A stretch of 64,000 nt of DNA from a virus, in the IMG/VR virus record IMGVR_UViG_3300043444_000523, positions 32,001 through 96,000 of that record; one strand, 5' to 3'. Each line of letters opens with the position of its first letter. The stretch's first letter is position 1. Below are positions 24,112 to 53,369 of this stretch, one piece after another. The notes below the pieces were generated by a model. The model was not told the DNA's origin. It made no database searches and saw only the letters and a list, made by a program, of their open reading frames with translations. The position numbers were made by a program, and so were the translations under genes.

Positions 24112-25185
24112 TTAGCCCGCGACTTTTGGGGCCGGTTTACTGACGGCCCAAGCCCTCAAATTGAGGGCAGCGTTTCGGTCGGCATTTGTGGAGTGCCCGC
24201 AATGTTTGCAGACAAACTCAGACTGGCTCTTTCGGTTGGCACGCTCGCAGTGGCCGCAGACATGGCACGTCTGGGAACTGTATCGCGGGTCAACCAAGAC
24301 TACGGACACGCCTGCCCGTCGGGCCTTGTACTCCACAAACTGCCGAAGCTGAAAGAAACTCCAGTTGCCAAGTCGTCGCCGGAAACGCCTAGAAGCCGTT
24401 TGCTCACAACGGTCACGCAAACCGGAGAGGTTCTCCAGAGCGATACCGATGCCGAGTGTCTTGGCTTTGCCGACAAGACTCTTGCTGATGGCGTGGTTTA
24501 CCCATGCTTGATAGCGGGACTGCCGCCCCGCCATCCGCTTCAACCGTCGCTTGGCAGACTTGGTTCCTTTCCGTTGGTACTGCTTACGGGCTGTCATCCG
24601 GCGCTTGCGGTTTCGTTCGACACCCGCACCGGAGAACGATTCCCCGGTGGAGTCGGTAGCAATCTGGACAATGCCAAAGTCACAACCCAAGTATTCGGTA
24701 ACCGGCTGTGGGTCGGAAACGGTCGCCTTGACTTGAACATGCAGAAAGTAACCGCCATCGCGTTTGACAAGTGCAGCGCTGGTCGGAACCTTCCCCGCAA
24801 GCGCGGTTCGCTGAAAGTCGCCAAGTTGGGTCGTCAGTCGATGCCGCCCATGCAACAGGGTCAGGCTGAAAGTCCAGTCGGATTCTCGGAAGGAAAAGAT
24901 TCGAGCATCGTAGTTCACGCTCGTAGGAGCAAATCGGGAGAGGTCTTTTACGGCGGCAACGCGACCGATGGCACGAACGGCCAGATTCGCCGACAGCCCG
25001 AACGCAGTCCGCGTTTCGCGGTAGGCCAATTTGTGCAGAGCGAGATGTCCTTTAGTCTCTGTCTCTGCCGCACGACGAACCAAGTGATTGCACGCCGCAG
25101 CGAAAGCCACAAGTGTAACGTCGATTTCAACCGCCTGTTCAGCGGTCGGAACCAGCTTGCAACAGATGGTACGGATGGCTTCCAT
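24112..25185 (-). CDS. tnpB: RNA-guided endonuclease TnpB
   Basis: RuvC D (LGCDFG), E (IALENL), Zn finger (CHVC...CKHC), D (NADRNAA). Confidence 0.92.
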   Translation of the reverse strand: MEAIRTICCKLVPTAEQAVEIDVTLVAFAAACNHLVRRAAETETKGHLALHKLAYRETRTAFGLSANLAVRAIGRVAAVKDLSRFAPTSVNYDARIFSFRESDWTFSLTLLHGRHRLTTQLGDFQRTALAGKVPTSAALVKRDGGYFLHVQVKATVSDPQPVTEYLGCDFGIVQIATDSTGESFSGAGVERNRKRRMTARKQYQRKGTKSAKRRLKRMAGRQSRYQAWVNHAISKSLVGKAKTLGIGIALENLSGLRDRCEQTASRRFRRRLGNWSFFQLRQFVEYKARRAGVSVVLVDPRYSSQTCHVCGHCERANRKSQSEFVCKHCGHSTNADRNAALNLRAWAVSKPAPKVAG

Positions 25186-25795: not shown

Positions 25796-25823
25796 TTGAC
25801 AACCTGGACGACCCTGATAGAGT
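25796..25823 (+). promoter_or_regulatory. Sigma-70-like promoter for the second tnpB (probably leaderless)
   Basis: TTGACA-N16-TAGAGT, GTG 7 nt downstream. Confidence 0.55.
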
Positions 25824-25830
25824 TATCCTT

Positions 25831-27006
25831 GTGCTGAAAACGATTACCTATCGTCTGTACCCGTCGCGGGAGCAGGAATCTTTCCTGTTCTACTTCCTCT
25901 ACATTGGCCGCAAGATTTACAACGACGCACTTGCCGAGCGCGTCCGGTTCTACAAAGACACTGGCAAAAGCCTGACTAAATTCACGCAACAGATGGACCT
26001 GACGATACGCAGGTCAATTAGCCCGGTGCTTGCCTCTGTCCCTGTCTGGATTGAGCGAGACTCCCTGTCTAGGATAGACAAGGCATTCGCCAATTTCTTC
26101 CGCAGAGTAAATGAAGGGAGTGCCAAGCCTGGGTTCCCGCGATTCAAGTCAGCCAATCGCTGGAACAGTTTCTCAATGCCTATCCAAGGCAGTGGCAAGA
26201 AACTGGTGCAAGGAAATAGAATCCGCGTGGCCGGGATTGAAGGAACAATGCCAAGCCGTGGCGGGCAACAAATACTTGGAAAGATCATTGTCCAGAGAAT
26301 TGTTCATCGAGCAGGCAAGTGGTTCTGCAAGTTCGTAGTTGATGACAAACTCGACCCACCGCCTATTCATCCTGTAAAGTCGGCTATCGGCGTCGATGTT
26401 GGTCTGAAATCGTTTGCAACGCTTAGCAACGGTTCAACGATTGAGAATCCACGATTCTATCGGGGACTGGAACTCAAGCGTGCCCATCGCAACGTGTCTC
26501 GTAAAATCAAAGGCAGTCGGAACCGATGGAGAGCCGTTCGTCGTCTTCAATCGGTTTATGAGAAAGTCAGAAACTTACGCCACAATTTTACGCATCACGA
26601 GAGCAAGAGGATTGTCAATGACCACCAACTGATTGTTGTCGAAAAACTGAACATAGCTGGCATGGCCAGAAGCCGATTTGCCAAAAGTATCTTGGACGCT
26701 GCATGGGGTCGGTTCATATTTCAATTGCGTTACAAAGCTGAAAACGCTGGTTGCGCATTCGTTGAAGTTGACCCCCGTGGCACAAGCCAAGATTGCAGCA
26801 AGTGCGGCCAGACCGTGCCAAAGAAGTTGTCGGATCGTGTCCATAAATGCTCTTGCGGTCTCGTGCTAGACCGCGACCATAATGCGGCGTTGAACATCCT
26901 TCAGCGTGCCGTTCGATCAGCACCCGGCCCCGGTAGGTGGATCGGTAAAGCGTGTGGAGAGGCTACGAAGACTCGGCGAAACACGAAGGCTTCAACACCA
27001 TGTTGA
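25831..27006 (+). CDS. tnpB: Orphan TnpB-family RNA-guided nuclease
   Basis: N-terminal YRLYP, PGFPRFKS, RuvC D (IGVDVG), E (VVEKL), Zn finger, D (DRDHNAA); the 937-aa ORF-track call is an artefactual extension. Confidence 0.88.
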   Translation: MLKTITYRLYPSREQESFLFYFLYIGRKIYNDALAERVRFYKDTGKSLTKFTQQMDLTIRRSISPVLASVPVWIERDSLSRIDKAFANFFRRVNEGSAKPGFPRFKSANRWNSFSMPIQGSGKKLVQGNRIRVAGIEGTMPSRGGQQILGKIIVQRIVHRAGKWFCKFVVDDKLDPPPIHPVKSAIGVDVGLKSFATLSNGSTIENPRFYRGLELKRAHRNVSRKIKGSRNRWRAVRRLQSVYEKVRNLRHNFTHHESKRIVNDHQLIVVEKLNIAGMARSRFAKSILDAAWGRFIFQLRYKAENAGCAFVEVDPRGTSQDCSKCGQTVPKKLSDRVHKCSCGLVLDRDHNAALNILQRAVRSAPGPGRWIGKACGEATKTRRNTKASTPC

Positions 27007-27718: not shown

Positions 27719-27958
27719 AAGAAATAGGCGCAACTCGCGCCTATTTCCGCCTCCCCCACAGGCTGACCTTCTTTTCGTCTCTTCGGGGCGGCTCGTCTGG
27801 TATACTTGCAGGCGAGCCCCTCTGTCCCCTGCCTCCGATGCCGATCCGTGCGCCCATCGTCTGGTCTGTTCGTGATGCTCCGGTTTCTATGCCAGCTAGT
27901 GAAGCAACTCCGAAGTCGGCATGGAAGTGGGCCAGATTGAATGCGTCCATGCCGTCTG
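27719..27958 (-). repeat. Inverted, diverged copy of the terL 3' end (pairs with 30939-31178)
   Basis: 240 bp, about 89% identical by hand alignment, reading frame intact. Confidence 0.92.
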
Positions 27959-28027
27959 ACAAGCGAAAGAAACAGCACAAGTTCAAGTGCAGACGATGCC
28001 ACAAAAAGGCGTTCCTAGAAGAGCCAA

Positions 28028-28610: not shown

Positions 28611-28946
28611 TCACACCAGTTCCAGAATCCTTCGCGCCTGTTCACGCCCCATCTCGTTGACCGCACTCTTCATGGCCGCAACGTGACCGGCGTAGTCGAT
28701 TGGCCTCGGCGGATCAATTGGCCCGGTGGTATACGAAGTCACAAGGCGGAACGACTTCTTGGCTCCGTCTTGTTTTGGCTTCCCATTCTTGATGATCGAC
28801 TTGTACGTTGACACCTGAGCCAACGTGGCCTCGACACCGCTCTTGGAGCAGTATTCGACGATCTTCTGATTGTCCGTGATGCCGTCCTTGATCGCTTGCC
28901 GAACCATCCCCATCCGAGACGGCTTCTTCTCTTTTGCCTTTGACAT
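28611..28946 (-). CDS. Hypothetical basic protein, possibly DNA-binding
   Basis: GAGG RBS, Lys-rich. Confidence 0.55.
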   Translation of the reverse strand: MSKAKEKKPSRMGMVRQAIKDGITDNQKIVEYCSKSGVEATLAQVSTYKSIIKNGKPKQDGAKKSFRLVTSYTTGPIDPPRPIDYAGHVAAMKSAVNEMGREQARRILELV

Positions 28947-29021
28947 GCATACCTCTTGTTAGAAACGGGACCAAACACCATTATCATGATACTGGATGTG
29001 ACACGCCGCGTCTATAACTCA

Positions 29022-29312
29022 ACCGGGTAGCCCAACGGAAGAGGCAGCGTCGGCCTATCAGACTATCACAGGAGACTTGTAACGTCGTGCCAAGGTCATG
29101 ATCGTTTGTCGGCCTTAATGCCCTGAGATGCAGGTTCGATTCCAGCTCCCCCAGCTTATCCACAACCCTACTGGGGGATCGTCTAACGGAAAGACATCAG
29201 GCTTAACGATTGAGGGCCACAAGTGGATAAGAGCATGACCAACCTGAAAAGGCGCATCCCATCTTGAGTGATGGACTCGGACCCGGCAGACGGCTACTCT
29301 GTCGGGTCTTTT
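29022..29312 (+). ncRNA. Circularly permuted tRNA-like RNA (3' half 29122-29154 precedes 5' half 29172-29203)
   Basis: Acceptor TGGGGGA/TCCCCCA, D-stem GTCT/AGAC, anticodon stem TCAGG/CCTGA, T-loop TTCGATT; complementary flanks; terminator downstream. Confidence 0.75.
29280..29312 (+). terminator. Intrinsic terminator closing the permuted RNA
   Basis: GACCCGGCAGA-N7-TCTGTCGGGTC-TTTT. Confidence 0.75.
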
Positions 29313-29315
29313 CTA

Positions 29316-29344
29316 TTGACACATCCAGGCGTCATGCGTAGCCT
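29316..29344 (+). promoter_or_regulatory. Sigma-70-like promoter for terL (leaderless)
   Basis: TTGACA-N17-TAGCCT, ATG 6 nt downstream, no RBS. Confidence 0.55.
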
Positions 29345-29350
29345 GCTTGC

Positions 29351-31156
29351 ATGTTAAGTGCCTCCGAACTCGCCGAACTTGAAGCCTATCTCCCGCACGC
29401 CAATGAAGATGAACGTCGGAAGATCAACGAGTATCTAGTCTCCATCCGCAAGGTGGAGAACAACTTCCCTTGGGCCGCATACCGATACGATCCAATCGGC
29501 TATGCGTACAACGTCCTTGGCCTCACGTTCCTTTCCGACGATCAGAAGATTGCACTGCGAGCGGCTGTAACGCCTCCGTACCGAGTGCAAATTGACGCCG
29601 GAAACGCTGTTGGCAAAAGCCTAACCTGCGCCGTCTTGGCCTCATGGTTCTACGACTCATATGACCCAGGCTGCGTTTTCACTACGGCCCCGACGCACGA
29701 TCACGTTGTCCGCGTGCTCTGGGCGCAAATACGCTCGCTTAGGTCCAATGCCAAGATGAAGCTACCGATGGACTTCATCGGGCCAGCTGCACCTGAGATG
29801 CGATCATCGGAATATCACTTTGCAAAAGGCCTGACCGCCTCGAAAGGAGAGGCGCTCAAAGGTTCTCACTTGCAGAATATGTGCTTCATATTCGACGAGT
29901 CTGAAGCATTGCCGGTGATGTACTGGGAATCTGTTCGCACGATGTTTAAGCCGCAGCCGGGTATGCTGTGGCTATCCGTGGGCAACCCGACAACCACCAG
30001 CAGCGCTGCATTCCTTGAGTCCACTCGCACGGATGAGAACAAGAAGCCGTTCTGGCGCAACCTGCGCATGAGTGTGCTCAATCACCCAAACATCATAGCT
30101 GGTCTCCAAGGGCTTCCGCCGCCAATCCCAAACGCCGTCGATGTCGGCATGGTGGATGACTGGGTGCGACGACTATGCACGCCTCTCGATGAAAAAGAAG
30201 AAAAAAAAGCCACTGACTTCCAGTGGCGAGGAAGATGGTATCGGCCAAGCGGTGAAGCCGAGACGGTCATTCTCGGCTGTCGCCCGTCAACAGGAGCATC
30301 CGGCGTTTGGTCAGACTCGCTCTGGGAAGCCTGTTGCCATCTCGATTTGCCGTTCCCAATCGATCAACCACCCGAACTTGGCTGTGACGTGGCCAGAGTC
30401 CTTGGTGGCGATGATTGCGACATTCACGCACAATGGGGCGGCAACTCTCTCGCCCATGACTCTGCCAATGGCCGCTCTATACCAGCTACCATCGCTCGTC
30501 TCAAAGAGATGGCCGAAGAAGTATGCGAGTTTGCCAACGCCAAGAGAAAGGAACTTGTGGCCACTGGCAAATACTCACCCGAAGAACTCTCCAGGGCTCA
30601 AATCCACAAGCCGTGGGTTCCCAAAGAAATACCTGTCAAGATCGACGATTGCGGCATCGGCAACGTCATCACCGACTTTGCAGACGGCTGGAACTTCATC
30701 CCAGTCAACCCAGGCTGGGCTGCAAAGCAAGACCTACGTTATCCCAACGTCCGAAGCGAGCTGTGGTTTGAGACCCAGGAGAAGGCCATACTGTTCGGCC
30801 TCAGCATGAAGCACCTGTCTGAAGATGATCAGCAGATGCTGCGTATCCAATCCTTTGCGCCAAAGTGGGAGTTGGATGCTAGACGCCGACGAGTTGTTGA
30901 GAGCAAAGAGGACACAAAGAAACGACTTGGCCGCTCGCCAGACGGCATGGACGCATTCAATCTTGCCCACTTCCATGCCAACTTTGGCGTGGCCTCATTG
31001 GCAGGCATCGAAACCGGAGTATCACGAACAGACCAGACGATGGGCGCACGAATCGGCATCGGCGGCAGGGGACAGAGGGGCTCGCCTGCGAGTGTTCCAG
31101 ACGAGCCGCCTAGAAGAGACGAGAACAAAGTTACTCTGTGGGGGAGGCGGAAATAG
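29351..31156 (+). CDS. terL: Terminase large subunit
   Basis: Walker A (AGNAVGKS), Walker B (FIFDE), coupling motif VGNP, nuclease LGCDVAR...SPDGMDA. Confidence 0.93.
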   Translation: MLSASELAELEAYLPHANEDERRKINEYLVSIRKVENNFPWAAYRYDPIGYAYNVLGLTFLSDDQKIALRAAVTPPYRVQIDAGNAVGKSLTCAVLASWFYDSYDPGCVFTTAPTHDHVVRVLWAQIRSLRSNAKMKLPMDFIGPAAPEMRSSEYHFAKGLTASKGEALKGSHLQNMCFIFDESEALPVMYWESVRTMFKPQPGMLWLSVGNPTTTSSAAFLESTRTDENKKPFWRNLRMSVLNHPNIIAGLQGLPPPIPNAVDVGMVDDWVRRLCTPLDEKEEKKATDFQWRGRWYRPSGEAETVILGCRPSTGASGVWSDSLWEACCHLDLPFPIDQPPELGCDVARVLGGDDCDIHAQWGGNSLAHDSANGRSIPATIARLKEMAEEVCEFANAKRKELVATGKYSPEELSRAQIHKPWVPKEIPVKIDDCGIGNVITDFADGWNFIPVNPGWAAKQDLRYPNVRSELWFETQEKAILFGLSMKHLSEDDQQMLRIQSFAPKWELDARRRRVVESKEDTKKRLGRSPDGMDAFNLAHFHANFGVASLAGIETGVSRTDQTMGARIGIGGRGQRGSPASVPDEPPRRDENKVTLWGRRK

Positions 31157-31805
31157 GCGCGAGTTGCGCCGATTTCTTCTTATCAAGCATCTCAGTCAAA
31201 TGCTTCCGAATGGCCGAATTTTGGTCATCGCATTGCTTATTGTAATCGAACAAGTCTTCGGGACTGTTGAAGAACATCCTGCCTACCAGTCGTTGGTCTT
31301 CTACGCGGAATCTGTCGTCTTTGTCAATGAAGCAGAACTCTTTCTCTGATGAAGCCACCAGCCTGAACTGGTTCCCATCGCTATCAAACACCGTCATGTT
31401 CACGCCAAACACGCAACCAGGATGCTCAGGGTCAGGAAACTTTTCACGAGCGTCTCGAATGTCTTTTGCCGACAGGCAGACCTCGGTATTGTGATAAACA
31501 AGCACAATCGTCTTCAGTTTGCCCCAGTCCAAGACGGCCTTGTACCGTATCGATTCATAGTCTTCGCCGAAGCCCGTGTACGTAAAGCCATAAGCGGCCC
31601 CGACGCAGTTGTCGTCATAGAAGACAATCTCGCCGGAGAACGGAACCTGATCGCCGTCAAGCGACAGGCCACGCTCCATTTCAATCCAATATGTCTCAAG
31701 ATGGCAACCAAGGCTCTTCGTCTGGTACTGATGGCGCGCATCCTTGATGAAGTTCGCCTTCTTCGGCAGCGGCGCAGTGCAGATGATCGTGTCATACATT
31801 CCCAT
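31131..31805 (-). CDS. Hypothetical phage protein (MGMYD...YQTKSL type)
   Basis: Common phage motif, GGAGG RBS. Confidence 0.6.
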   Translation of the reverse strand: MGMYDTIICTAPLPKKANFIKDARHQYQTKSLGCHLETYWIEMERGLSLDGDQVPFSGEIVFYDDNCVGAAYGFTYTGFGEDYESIRYKAVLDWGKLKTIVLVYHNTEVCLSAKDIRDAREKFPDPEHPGCVFGVNMTVFDSDGNQFRLVASSEKEFCFIDKDDRFRVEDQRLVGRMFFNSPEDLFDYNKQCDDQNSAIRKHLTEMLDKKKSAQLAPISASPTE

Positions 31806-53164: not shown

Positions 53165-53369
53165 GTGGGTCGCTTGCCCGCTGGGGGTGGGCGAAAGCCT
53201 GCTGGGAGATGACAGACGTGCCAACGTCTTGATACCGGCGATGACTGGAGGATGGTAGCGCAAACGGGGGAGCGTGGCTGCTCCATGTGATGCCTAGCGA
53301 TGGCTAGGCTCGCTGTTCCCGTCCGCAAGAGTACTCCGGTCTGCGAGGTTCGAGTCCTCGGCGACCCAC
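53165..53369 (+). ncRNA. About 205-nt structured RNA with tRNA-like acceptor and T arms
   Basis: GTGGGTCGC/GCGACCCAC closing stem, T-arm CGAGG-TTCGAGT-CCTCG, several nested stems, intergenic. Confidence 0.65.

What the first reader, a model, noticed from the sequence alone, without database searches (positions are those of the whole stretch)
29022..29312. Circularly permuted tRNA-like gene with a long duplex replacing the anticodon loop
Seen: a tRNA 3' half (CCTGA-GAT-GCAGG-TTCGATT-CCAGC-TCCCCCA-G, 29122-29154) lies upstream of its matching 5' half (TGGGGGA-TC-GTCT-AACGGAA-AGAC-A-TCAGG-CT, 29172-29203), with a 17-nt linker. Leader and trailer pair for roughly 25 more bp beyond the anticodon stem (GGCCTTAAT/ATTGAGGGCC, ATCGTTTGT/ACAAGTGGAT, GGTCATG/CATGACC). 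There is a TATAAC upstream and a terminator downstream. The body (U1-A72, G73) looks Gln-like, but the possible rejoined loops read TAA, TAT or AAT. Known: permuted tRNA genes are described in algae and archaea; in bacteria permutation is known for tmRNA. Inference: a phage permuted tRNA that is spliced or circularised, or a two-piece tRNA mimic with no anticodon loop that anticodon nucleases could not cut.
Basis: partly seen in the sequence, partly recalled or inferred. Interest (0 to 1): 0.85.

Follow-up and report, generated by a model that had tools for sequence, protein, structure and literature searches.

The report
Partner-less phage tRNA-mimic RNA
This phage carries a small RNA gene whose core is a tRNA turned inside out (acceptor end sealed by a loop, no anticodon loop). 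It most resembles the second "head" of an unpublished two-headed RNA that normally sits beside a protein of unknown function (DUF7873), but here the protein gene and most of the first head are missing.

Summary
At 29122-29201 a T arm, a 7-bp acceptor stem closed by an 18-nt loop, and a D arm lie in permuted order. ARAGORN calls a tRNA once the halves are rejoined. It is not a permuted tRNA gene awaiting splicing: there is no BHB motif, no ligase, and relatives have no anticodon loop.

It is a YrlA-style closed-acceptor tRNA mimic. A covariance model built from 14 Planctomycetota RNAs downstream of DUF7873 (PF25283) genes, window excluded, hits it at 48 bits (E 2.5e-12). In 83 family members every helix covaries, including the extended stems.

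A model built from the window scores DUF7873-linked RNAs of phages at 26-40 bits. It scores Ro60-linked modules at 18 bits or nothing. An orphan acceptor-strand-plus-D-arm piece (29021-29045) lies 84 nt upstream, close to the family's head-to-head spacing.

However, the first head's T arm is absent, the phage record has neither DUF7873 nor Ro60, and flank-only HMMs do not match. On energy alone the window's own long stem is not beyond chance.

Best reading: a one-and-a-half-headed, partner-less derivative of the twin RNA. Whether it is functional or a relic is unresolved. Earlier scan notes had already reported the twin-RNA family on other DNA.

The parts
29013..29018 (+). TATAAC, a -10-like box. 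It would place the start of the transcript near 29023.
   Evidence: Sequence. It partly resembles the phage's CCCTATAA-N5 leaderless-promoter motif, which occurs exactly 4 times in the genome. No good -35 box. Inferred, not shown.
29021..29045 (+). Orphan 5' half of a first tRNA-like head: acceptor 5' strand AACCGGG, then TA, then a D arm (GCC-CAACGGAAGA-GGC). No T arm or acceptor 3' strand lies upstream.
   Evidence: Aligns to the head-1 acceptor-strand-plus-D-arm of phage DUF7873-linked RNAs L287 and L269. No complementary T arm plus acceptor 3' strand exists anywhere in the phage genome.
29046..29093 (+). Linker between the orphan D arm and the stem of the complete head.
   Evidence: The D-arm-to-T-arm distance is 84 nt, against 85-143 nt (median 96) in 37 phage family members. 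Linker-only HMMs do not match it.
29094..29100 (+). Outer helix, 5' strand GGTCATG. Pairs with 29234-29240.
   Evidence: 7/7 pairs. The family has a covarying 7-bp outer helix at the analogous place, but model R2 did not extend to it in the window.
29105..29119 (+). 5' strands of the middle helices (TTTGT, GGCC, TTAAT). Pair with 29209-29223.
   Evidence: Fold with the core fixed. GGCC/GGCC is aligned to family helix 3 by R2.
29122..29126 (+). 3' strand (CCTGA) of the anticodon-stem-like helix. Pairs with 29197-29201.
   Evidence: 5/5 pairs. The family model prefers a register shifted by one to two nt, giving 3/5.
29130..29146 (+). T arm, GCAGG-TTCGATT-CCAGC, with one A.A mismatch.
   Evidence: The GCAGG...CCTGC T stem recurs in family head 1 and in other Planctomycetota modules.
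29147..29178 (+). Acceptor stem (TCCCCCA/TGGGGGA, 7/7) closed by an 18-nt loop (29154-29171).
   Evidence: The acceptor helix is 100% paired in all 83 family members, with compensatory changes at every pair.
29179..29195 (+). U8-C9 and the D arm, GTCT-AACGGAA-AGAC.
29197..29201 (+). 5' strand (TCAGG) of the anticodon-stem-like helix.
29209..29223 (+). 3' strands of the middle helices.
29223..29231 (+). GTGGATAAG, a perfect 9-nt complement of acceptor-loop bases 29155-29163. A possible tertiary or intermolecular pairing.
   Evidence: About 0.2 such pairs are expected by chance in 300 nt, so it is not significant on its own and was not tested in relatives.
29234..29240 (+). Outer helix, 3' strand CATGACC.
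29259..29274 (+). Small hairpin, CCATC-TTGAGT-GATGG.
   Evidence: Some family members have a variable hairpin at this place.
29279..29315 (+). Terminal hairpin (12 bp) followed by a T run: an intrinsic terminator.
   Evidence: It lies between two divergent genes, so it can only end a plus-strand unit that starts in the gap. The family HMM aligned it to the family's terminal hairpin, but a tail-only HMM is not significant.

Best explanation
The 404-nt gap between a minus-strand 111-aa gene and terL holds a separate non-coding RNA gene of about 290 nt (about 29023 to 29312).

Its core is a closed-acceptor, anticodon-less tRNA mimic. The T arm, a 7-bp acceptor stem capped by a loop, and the D arm fold into a tRNA-like elbow. 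The chain enters and leaves through the 'anticodon stem' into an interrupted long stem. This is the architecture of bacterial YrlA Y RNAs.

By sequence and structure its nearest relatives are the second head of the two-headed RNA encoded just downstream of DUF7873 (PF25283) genes in Planctomycetota and many phages. The window keeps the 5' strand and D arm of the first head, the whole second head and the terminal hairpin. It lacks the leader, the first T arm and the DUF7873 gene.

Shown: the permuted fold; the match to the family model; covariation in the family; the absence of DUF7873, Ro60 and RNA ligases from the 105-kb record.

Inferred: that it is transcribed from the TATAAC box to the terminator; that it acts as a protein-binding tRNA mimic, perhaps using a host DUF7873-type or other tRNA-binding protein; that RNase P may cut the 7-bp acceptor stem as in M. 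smegmatis YrlA. It may equally be a recent relic of a deleted DUF7873-RNA cassette.
For: - ARAGORN calls a tRNA on the rejoined halves.
- A strict scan finds the element only here in 586 kb.
- R1, built from the window, hits RNAs downstream of DUF7873 genes in Planctomycetota. The gene was confirmed as PF25283 at E 1.7e-102.
- RNAalifold on 14 such RNAs, without the window, finds compensatory changes at 33 of 34 pairs.
- R2, built from those 14, hits window 29111-29218 at 48.3 bits, E 2.5e-12. Real tRNAs in the window reach at most 11 bits, and 92 terL-relative loci give no hit.
- In an 83-member alignment, 93.6% of cells are paired against 56.5% when shuffled. The covariation score is 0.89, against 0.22 shuffled and 0.11-0.15 with partners slid.
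- The window has 3 core mismatches; the family range is 0-4.
- R1 scores phage DUF7873-linked second heads at 26-40 bits over the full model, but Ro60-adjacent modules at 18 bits or nothing.
- nhmmer alignments run colinearly from the orphan D arm to the terminal hairpin.
- Head spacing is 84 nt against 85-143 nt in the family.
- A terminator lies between divergent genes.
Against: - HMMs made only from the non-tRNA-like flanks of 37 phage or 14 bacterial members do not hit the window.
- 48 bits is in the range that R2 also gives to Ro60-adjacent single modules and to junctions of tandem tRNAs (up to 54.5 bits). The model score alone therefore does not fix the subfamily.
- Full-length R2 matches (65-168 bits) occur in 9 of 9 DUF7873-positive Planctomycetota genomes and in none of 142 others. 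The window has no DUF7873, and neighbouring proteins are unrelated to it.
- The first head is incomplete.
- The window's own extended stem is not beyond chance, and the whole-region fold has z = -0.4.
- No homologue was found in the phage's own lineage. The only close relative, L002, is cut 105 nt upstream of terL.
- There is no expression evidence.
Confidence: 0.6

Rival explanations
1. It is a dead relic. A deletion or rearrangement removed the DUF7873 gene and the first third of the twin RNA (or scrambled a tRNA-Gln array). What remains is not under selection and has no function in this phage.
For: - The first T arm, its acceptor 3' strand and DUF7873 are missing, although gene and full-length RNA co-occur 9/9 versus 0/142 in the bacteria sampled.
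- A.A mismatch in the T stem and a 3-nt variable region.
- The extended stem is not beyond chance.
- Flank-only HMMs are negative.
- The locus lies inside a 3-kb segment bounded by 247-bp inverted repeats, a sign of past rearrangement.
Against: - The acceptor stem (7/7), D stem (4/4), T loop, U8, A14, G18-G19 and an A15-U48 Levitt pair are all intact.
- The mismatch count is within the family range.
- A strong terminator and a -10-like box frame the unit between divergent genes.
- A recent deletion would look the same, so this cannot be settled from one sequence.
Confidence: 0.3
2. It is a Ro60-type Y RNA (YrlA class) that the phage supplies to work with the host's Rsr protein.
For: - The topology is the same as YrlA: T arm, capped acceptor stem, D arm on a stem formed by the RNA's ends (PMC4201824).
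- Mycobacteriophages carry YrlA.
- TROVE genes occur in 9 of 151 Planctomycetota genomes sampled, with single permuted modules about 1 kb downstream on the same strand.
Against: - Rfam YrlA (RF02553) gives no hit at E<=10, although it gives 27-44 bits to the Planctomycetota modules.
- No GNCGAAN0-1G motif in the 5' strand of the stem.
- No TROVE gene in the phage record.
- The window-derived model scores Ro60-adjacent modules at 18 bits or not at all.
Confidence: 0.07
3. It is a true circularly permuted tRNA gene. Its precursor is cut at the leader-trailer junction and ligated or circularised, then opened at the acceptor loop to give a decoding tRNA (anticodon UAA, UAU or AAU).
For: The gene order (3' half, intervening sequence, 5' half) matches algal and archaeal permuted tRNA genes (PMC3978253). 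ARAGORN accepts the rejoined molecule.
Against: - No 3-nt/4-bp/3-nt bulge-helix-bulge motif at the junction.
- Bacteria lack the splicing endonuclease (general knowledge).
- The phage has no RtcB, RNA ligase or CCA enzyme.
- 83 relatives keep covarying helices where an anticodon loop would be.
- The candidate anticodons disagree with the Gln-like acceptor identity.
Confidence: 0.02
4. It is a two-piece (permuted) tmRNA or a fragment of one.
For: Permuted gene order with the acceptor/T-arm piece first, as in alpha-, beta- and cyanobacterial tmRNA genes.
Against: - ARAGORN, which detects permuted tmRNA, finds none.
- No Rfam tmRNA hit at E<=10.
- No G3-U70 pair, no tag reading frame, and a full D arm unlike tmRNA.
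Confidence: 0.01

Closest known systems
YrlA (Y RNA-like A; Rfam RF02553), the tRNA-like Y RNA bound by bacterial and mycobacteriophage Ro60/Rsr (Chen et al. 2014, PMC4201824; Wang et al. 2018, bioRxiv 10.1101/312249)
   Same: - Modular design: a stem formed by the flanks carries a tRNA-like domain in the order T arm, loop-capped acceptor stem, D arm.
- Canonical T loop and D-loop GG, and a covarying 15-48 Levitt pair (A15-U48 here).
- No anticodon loop and no free CCA end.
- Occurs in phages.
- M. smegmatis YrlA, like this RNA, has a 7-bp acceptor stem; it is cut by RNase P and receives CCA.
   Different: - No match to RF02553.
- No GNCGAAN0-1G Ro-binding motif.
- No Ro60/TROVE gene within 4 kb or anywhere in the record.
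- An extra orphan D-arm piece lies upstream.
Twin permuted-tRNA-mimic RNA encoded downstream of DUF7873 (PF25283) genes. I found no paper on it ('DUF7873' gave 0 papers). It is known from earlier notes of this scan and was re-derived here.
   Same: - Match to the model of the second head plus helix 3.
- The window-derived model finds these RNAs in bacteria and phages.
- Colinear order: head-1 D arm, about 90-nt linker, head 2, terminal hairpin.
- 7-bp acceptor stems; the AGA-G motif before the T stem; ATCG after the outer helix.
   Different: - No leader, and no head-1 T arm or acceptor 3' strand.
- No DUF7873 gene in the phage.
- Flank sequences are not significantly similar.
- The score is at the bottom of the family range of 42-178 bits.
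Circularly permuted tRNA genes of Cyanidioschyzon merolae, other algae and Thermofilum pendens (Soma et al.; review PMC3978253)
   Same: 3' half upstream of 5' half, with a short intervening sequence (1-74 bp in known cases, 17-18 here) joining the acceptor strands.
   Different: Those genes have a BHB motif at the junction and yield a circular intermediate and a decoding tRNA. Here there is no BHB, no anticodon loop and no splicing machinery.
Two-piece tmRNA (permuted ssrA of alpha-, beta- and cyanobacteria)
   Same: A bacterial precedent for a permuted tRNA-like domain whose helix extends from the anticodon side.
   Different: tmRNA has G3-U70, a tag reading frame, pseudoknots and a degenerate D loop. 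None of these is present here.

Membership tests
DUF7873-linked twin tRNA-mimic RNA | Second head: permuted T arm, 7-bp capped acceptor stem and D arm on covarying extended helices (model R2) | tested here: met
   R2, built without the window, gives 48.3 bits, E 2.5e-12, model positions 42-158. Acceptor 7/7, D 4/4, T 4/5, helix 3 4/4. Caveat: unrelated single modules reach up to 54.5 bits.
DUF7873-linked twin tRNA-mimic RNA | Two complete permuted heads in one transcript | tested here: not met
   Only the acceptor 5' strand and D arm of head 1 are present (29021-29045). There is no T arm or acceptor 3' strand upstream or elsewhere in the genome.
DUF7873-linked twin tRNA-mimic RNA | Encoded within a few hundred nt downstream of a PF25283 gene on the same strand | tested here: not met
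   No PF25283 match at E<=1 in the 104.7-kb record, which is 87% complete. Neighbouring proteins are unrelated by hhalign. In the family, the RNA follows the gene in nearly all of 80 phage loci, and co-occurrence is 9/9 in the bacteria sampled.
DUF7873-linked twin tRNA-mimic RNA | Sequence similarity of linker, tail and terminal hairpin | tested here: inconclusive
   The whole-RNA HMM hit (E 3e-7) runs from head 2 to the terminal hairpin, and pairwise alignments are colinear. Flank-only HMMs give no hit.
YrlA / bacterial Y RNA | Match to Rfam RF02553 at the gathering score (69 bits) | tested here: not met
   No hit at E<=10.
YrlA / bacterial Y RNA | tRNA-like domain in the order T arm, capped acceptor stem, D arm, on a stem formed by the RNA's ends | tested here: met
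YrlA / bacterial Y RNA | GNCGAAN0-1G Ro-binding motif in the 5' strand of the stem (PMC4201824) | tested here: not met
   Read from the sequence 29023-29121: the motif is not there. The closest stretch is GGTCATGATCG.
YrlA / bacterial Y RNA | Ro60/TROVE gene within about 4 kb on the same strand | tested here: not met
   No PF05731 match in the whole record.
Circularly permuted tRNA gene | 3' half upstream of 5' half, joined by an intervening sequence | tested here: met
Circularly permuted tRNA gene | BHB motif (3-nt bulge, 4-bp helix, 3-nt bulge) formed by leader and trailer at the junction (PMC3978253) | tested here: not met
   The junction has a 2-nt/7-nt internal loop and then helices with single-nt bulges.
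Circularly permuted tRNA gene | Maturation to a decoding, aminoacylated tRNA through a circular intermediate | not testable with these tools
   Needs RT-PCR, Northern blots or an aminoacylation assay. Indirectly unlikely: there is no ligase or endonuclease in the phage, and relatives lack anticodon loops.
Two-piece tmRNA | G3-U70 alanine identity pair, tag reading frame, detection by ARAGORN or Rfam | tested here: not met

The most novel reading that the evidence does not exclude
The phage deliberately keeps only the second head of the twin RNA, under its own promoter and without the protein gene, as a molecular decoy or hijacker. The one-headed mimic would capture the host cell's DUF7873 protein (found in 19 of 301 Planctomycetota genomes sampled) or another tRNA-binding factor, and so disable or redirect the host's DUF7873-RNA particle during infection. 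The 9-nt complementarity between the acceptor loop (29155-63) and the stem's internal loop (29223-31) could lock the fold or link copies together.
Probability: 0.12. Interest if true: 0.8.

Novelty: new variant of a known kind. Interest (0 to 1): 0.55.

Why it matters
Closed-acceptor tRNA mimics were described for Ro60-bound YrlA RNAs. This locus, together with the family re-derived here, shows the same design in phages and Planctomycetota without Ro60, normally beside a protein of unknown function (DUF7873).

This copy lacks the protein gene, which is unusual for the family. It is either a snapshot of how such cassettes decay, or a case of a phage using an RNA alone against or with a host protein. 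Either outcome would help show what the DUF7873-RNA pair does.

It also gives a practical warning. Covariance models of permuted tRNA modules cross-hit junctions of tandem tRNA genes and Ro60-type RNAs, so a model score alone cannot assign the subfamily.

Tried and rejected
- Rfam at gathering and at E<=10: nothing at the locus. YrlA RF02553 on the own genome: nothing.
- blastn against GenBank phages: no match.
- Exact or degenerate DNA patterns in IMG/VR gave no permuted homologue. The acceptor-specific pattern had 0 hits. The T-loop...AACGGAA pattern gave 117 loci, all tandem tRNAs or chance. The D-arm 17-mer gave 5 ordinary tRNAs. The L002 upstream 31-mer matched only L002 itself.
- terL-based search for relatives: 80 viral, 8 metagenome and 4 genome loci, with no element upstream of terL by pattern scan, blastn/nhmmer or R2. 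More distant relatives have a co-directional gene abutting terL instead.
- The upstream 111-aa protein has no relatives in IMG/VR.
- The closest relative, L002 (74% TerL identity), is cut 105 nt before terL, and its record lacks the upstream genes.
- I considered that the short direct repeats 29025-40/29176-91 and 29100-12/29177-89 were degenerate tRNA copies. My estimate is that matches of that quality are expected by chance in 400 nt.
- I considered that the whole RNA is a re-permuted version of the family, with head 1 closed by the 29259-74 hairpin. Rejected: the hairpin loop lacks C56, the pairing is only 5-6 bp, and the family HMM aligns the 3' part colinearly.
- omega-RNA of the nearby TnpB genes: rejected, because the element is 2 kb away from them.
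- DUF7873 has no sequence relative among solved structures. Its fold was not predicted here, because the phage lacks the gene.

Full report
**Context.** The window is part of a 104,736-bp IMG/VR virus record, linear and 87% complete. It carries phage genes: portal and tail-lysin PHROG hits and a large-terminase homologue at 29351-31156. It also has two TnpB genes and four tRNAs, none of them Gln. TerL relatives occur in Planctomycetia, Acidobacteria and Deinococcus assemblies and in Fimbriiglobus. The finding lies in a 404-nt gap between a minus-strand 111-aa gene (28611-28946) and terL.

**Checking the observation.**
- The sequence is as described. A tRNA 3' half (29122-29154) precedes its 5' half (29172-29201). 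The acceptor strands pair 7/7, or 8/8 counting G29154-C29171.
- ARAGORN sees nothing in the native order. It calls a tRNA for every rejoined version.
- A strict scan for T arm / acceptor hairpin / D arm / closing 5-bp stem found only this site in 586 kb of phage DNA, apart from one artefact on a real tRNA.
- Tertiary-pair positions are intact (U8, A14, A15-U48, G18-G19, T54-A58, G53-C61). The T stem has an A.A mismatch and the variable region has 3 nt.
- A 12-bp hairpin with a T run follows at 29279-29309. It lies between divergent genes, so it can only end a plus-strand unit that starts inside the gap.
- terL has its own TTGACA-17-TAGCCT-6-ATG promoter, shared with relative L002.

**The "long duplex".** With the core fixed, leader and trailer form 24 pairs. 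Shuffled or genomic flanks do nearly as well: p is 0.14-0.39 on energy and 0.07-0.14 on pair number. The whole-region fold has z = -0.4. On this sequence alone the extended stem is unproven.

**Known families.**
- Rfam gives nothing.
- The topology is that of YrlA Y RNAs (PMC4201824; bioRxiv 10.1101/312249). However, RF02553 does not match, the Ro-binding motif is absent, and the record has no TROVE gene.
- It is not a permuted tRNA gene in the algal or archaeal sense (PMC3978253). There is no BHB motif, and the record has no RtcB, RNA ligase or CCA enzyme.
- It is not a tmRNA.

**Search for relatives through the phage lineage.** This failed. 92 terL-relative loci lack the element.

**Search by structure.**
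- A covariance model of the window element (R1) hit a Planctomycetia MAG. There, one terminator-ended RNA holds two tandem permuted tRNA-like heads, and ARAGORN finds no tRNA.
- Further hits in the phylum lay just downstream of a 258-aa gene, which Pfam identifies as DUF7873 (PF25283, E 1.7e-102).
- PF25283 occurs in 19 of 301 Planctomycetota genomes sampled and in at least 117 viral contigs.
- Earlier notes of this scan had already linked such twin RNAs to DUF7873. I treated that as a lead and re-derived it.

**Family structure.**
- RNAalifold on 14 bacterial members, window excluded, gives the permuted head, its closing stem and two further helices. 33 of 34 pairs show compensatory changes.
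- Model R2, built from that alignment, finds a match 150-600 nt downstream of the gene in nearly all of 80 phage loci, at 42-108 bits.
- In an 83-sequence, model-fitted alignment, 93.6% of cells pair against 56.5% when shuffled. The covariation score is 0.89, against 0.22 shuffled and 0.11-0.15 for slid partners. The acceptor helix is paired in 100% of sequences.
- Full-length R2 matches occur in 9 of 9 DUF7873-positive genomes of the 151 searched with R2, and in none of the other 142.

**Where the window fits.**
- R2 hits 29111-29218 at 48.3 bits, E 2.5e-12, covering the head and helix 3. The window's real tRNAs reach at most 11 bits. There is only one copy in the phage.
- Its mismatch count (3, or 1 in its own register) is within the family range of 0-4.
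- A whole-RNA family HMM hits 29123-29318 at E 3e-7.
- nhmmer with the window RNA aligns colinearly to phage DUF7873-linked RNAs, from the orphan acceptor-strand-plus-D-arm (29021-29045) to the terminal hairpin.
- That orphan piece sits 84 nt before the T arm, against 85-143 nt in the family.
- R1 scores phage second heads at 26-40 bits over the full model. It scores Ro60-adjacent modules of Planctomycetota at 18 bits or nothing.

**Cautions.**
- R2 also gives 27-55 bits to tandem-tRNA junctions, and to single permuted modules lying about 1 kb downstream of TROVE genes on the same strand.
- HMMs built only from the linker, or from the tail plus terminal hairpin, do not hit the window.
- The leader and the first T arm and acceptor 3' strand are absent, here and elsewhere in the genome.
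- DUF7873 is absent, and the neighbouring proteins are unrelated to it.

**Conclusion.** The element is a real closed-acceptor tRNA mimic of the YrlA architectural class. It is most probably derived from the DUF7873-linked twin RNA, with one and a half heads and no partner gene. It is not a tRNA awaiting splicing. Whether it works alone, perhaps through a host protein, or is a recent relic cannot be decided from one sequence. The locus lies inside a 2,966-bp segment bounded by 247-bp inverted repeats, which is consistent with past rearrangement. I put the identity at about 0.7 and function in this phage at about 0.5.

Noticed in passing
window 27719-27965 and 30932-31178: 247-nt inverted repeats, 89% complementary, bound a 2,966-bp segment that holds the RNA gene, two small genes and most of terL. 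The left arm is an inverted copy of the terL 3' end. The segment may be invertible or may have been inverted.
   Followed up: partly
window 53165-53369 (+): A second tRNA-like RNA of about 205 nt. It has a 9-bp closing stem, a canonical T arm (CGAGG-TTCGAGT-CCTCG), a 6-bp D-like hairpin and a large multi-stem insert. Fold z = -2.6. ARAGORN and Rfam do not call it.
   Followed up: partly
window -9123, -4707, 15278 and 20472 (minus strand; the negative positions lie upstream of the window in the genome): CCCTATAA occurs exactly four times in the genome. In three cases N5 and an ATG follow; in the fourth a tRNA-Met precursor region follows. This looks like a phage-specific promoter for leaderless transcripts.
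   Followed up: partly
window 29316-29353 and L002:70-108: TTGAC(A/C)-17 nt-TAGCCT-6 nt-ATG lies upstream of terL and is conserved between this phage and its 74%-identical relative. terL may be translated from a leaderless mRNA.
   Followed up: no
window 28992-29003 and 29317-29328: A 12-nt inverted repeat (CTGGATGTGACA / TGACACATCCAG, 11/12) brackets the RNA gene and overlaps the terL -35 box. By my estimate about 0.2 such pairs are expected by chance.
   Followed up: no
window 24112-25185 (-) and about 25800-27006 (+): Two TnpB (OrfB_IS605 / Cas12f1-like TNB) genes in a phage genome.
   Followed up: no
L228 (G130:C976) 1084-1780: Four tandem units share a 'handle' (GAGGCTATGAAYGCGCTTCCTTCT ... 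CTAGCGCNNTCNNTCTCCTC). Two of them carry a single permuted tRNA-like module whose T and D arms are close to the window's. They lie between a 347-aa ORF with no Pfam hit and a DTW-domain gene.
   Followed up: partly
G130:C680:2190-6468: A TROVE (Ro60-like) gene, a DUF7873 gene and the twin RNA lie on one strand within about 4 kb in one Planctomycetota genome. This hints that the two systems can be linked.
   Followed up: no
L338 (G006), L342 (G070); also G027, G085, G127: Single permuted tRNA-like modules, with no ARAGORN tRNA where checked (L338, L342), lie about 1 kb downstream of TROVE genes on the same strand in Planctomycetota. They are probably YrlA-type Y RNAs scoring below Rfam's threshold.
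   Followed up: partly
proteins P0002, P0008; L002:106-2694: Several TerL homologues are 900-955 aa long and carry homing-endonuclease domains (PF05204, PF14528), so they probably contain inteins.
   Followed up: no
L210 and L211 (IMG/VR): tRNA-like genes with the same D arm as the window element but a much enlarged anticodon region of 23 nt or more. ARAGORN does not call them.
   Followed up: no
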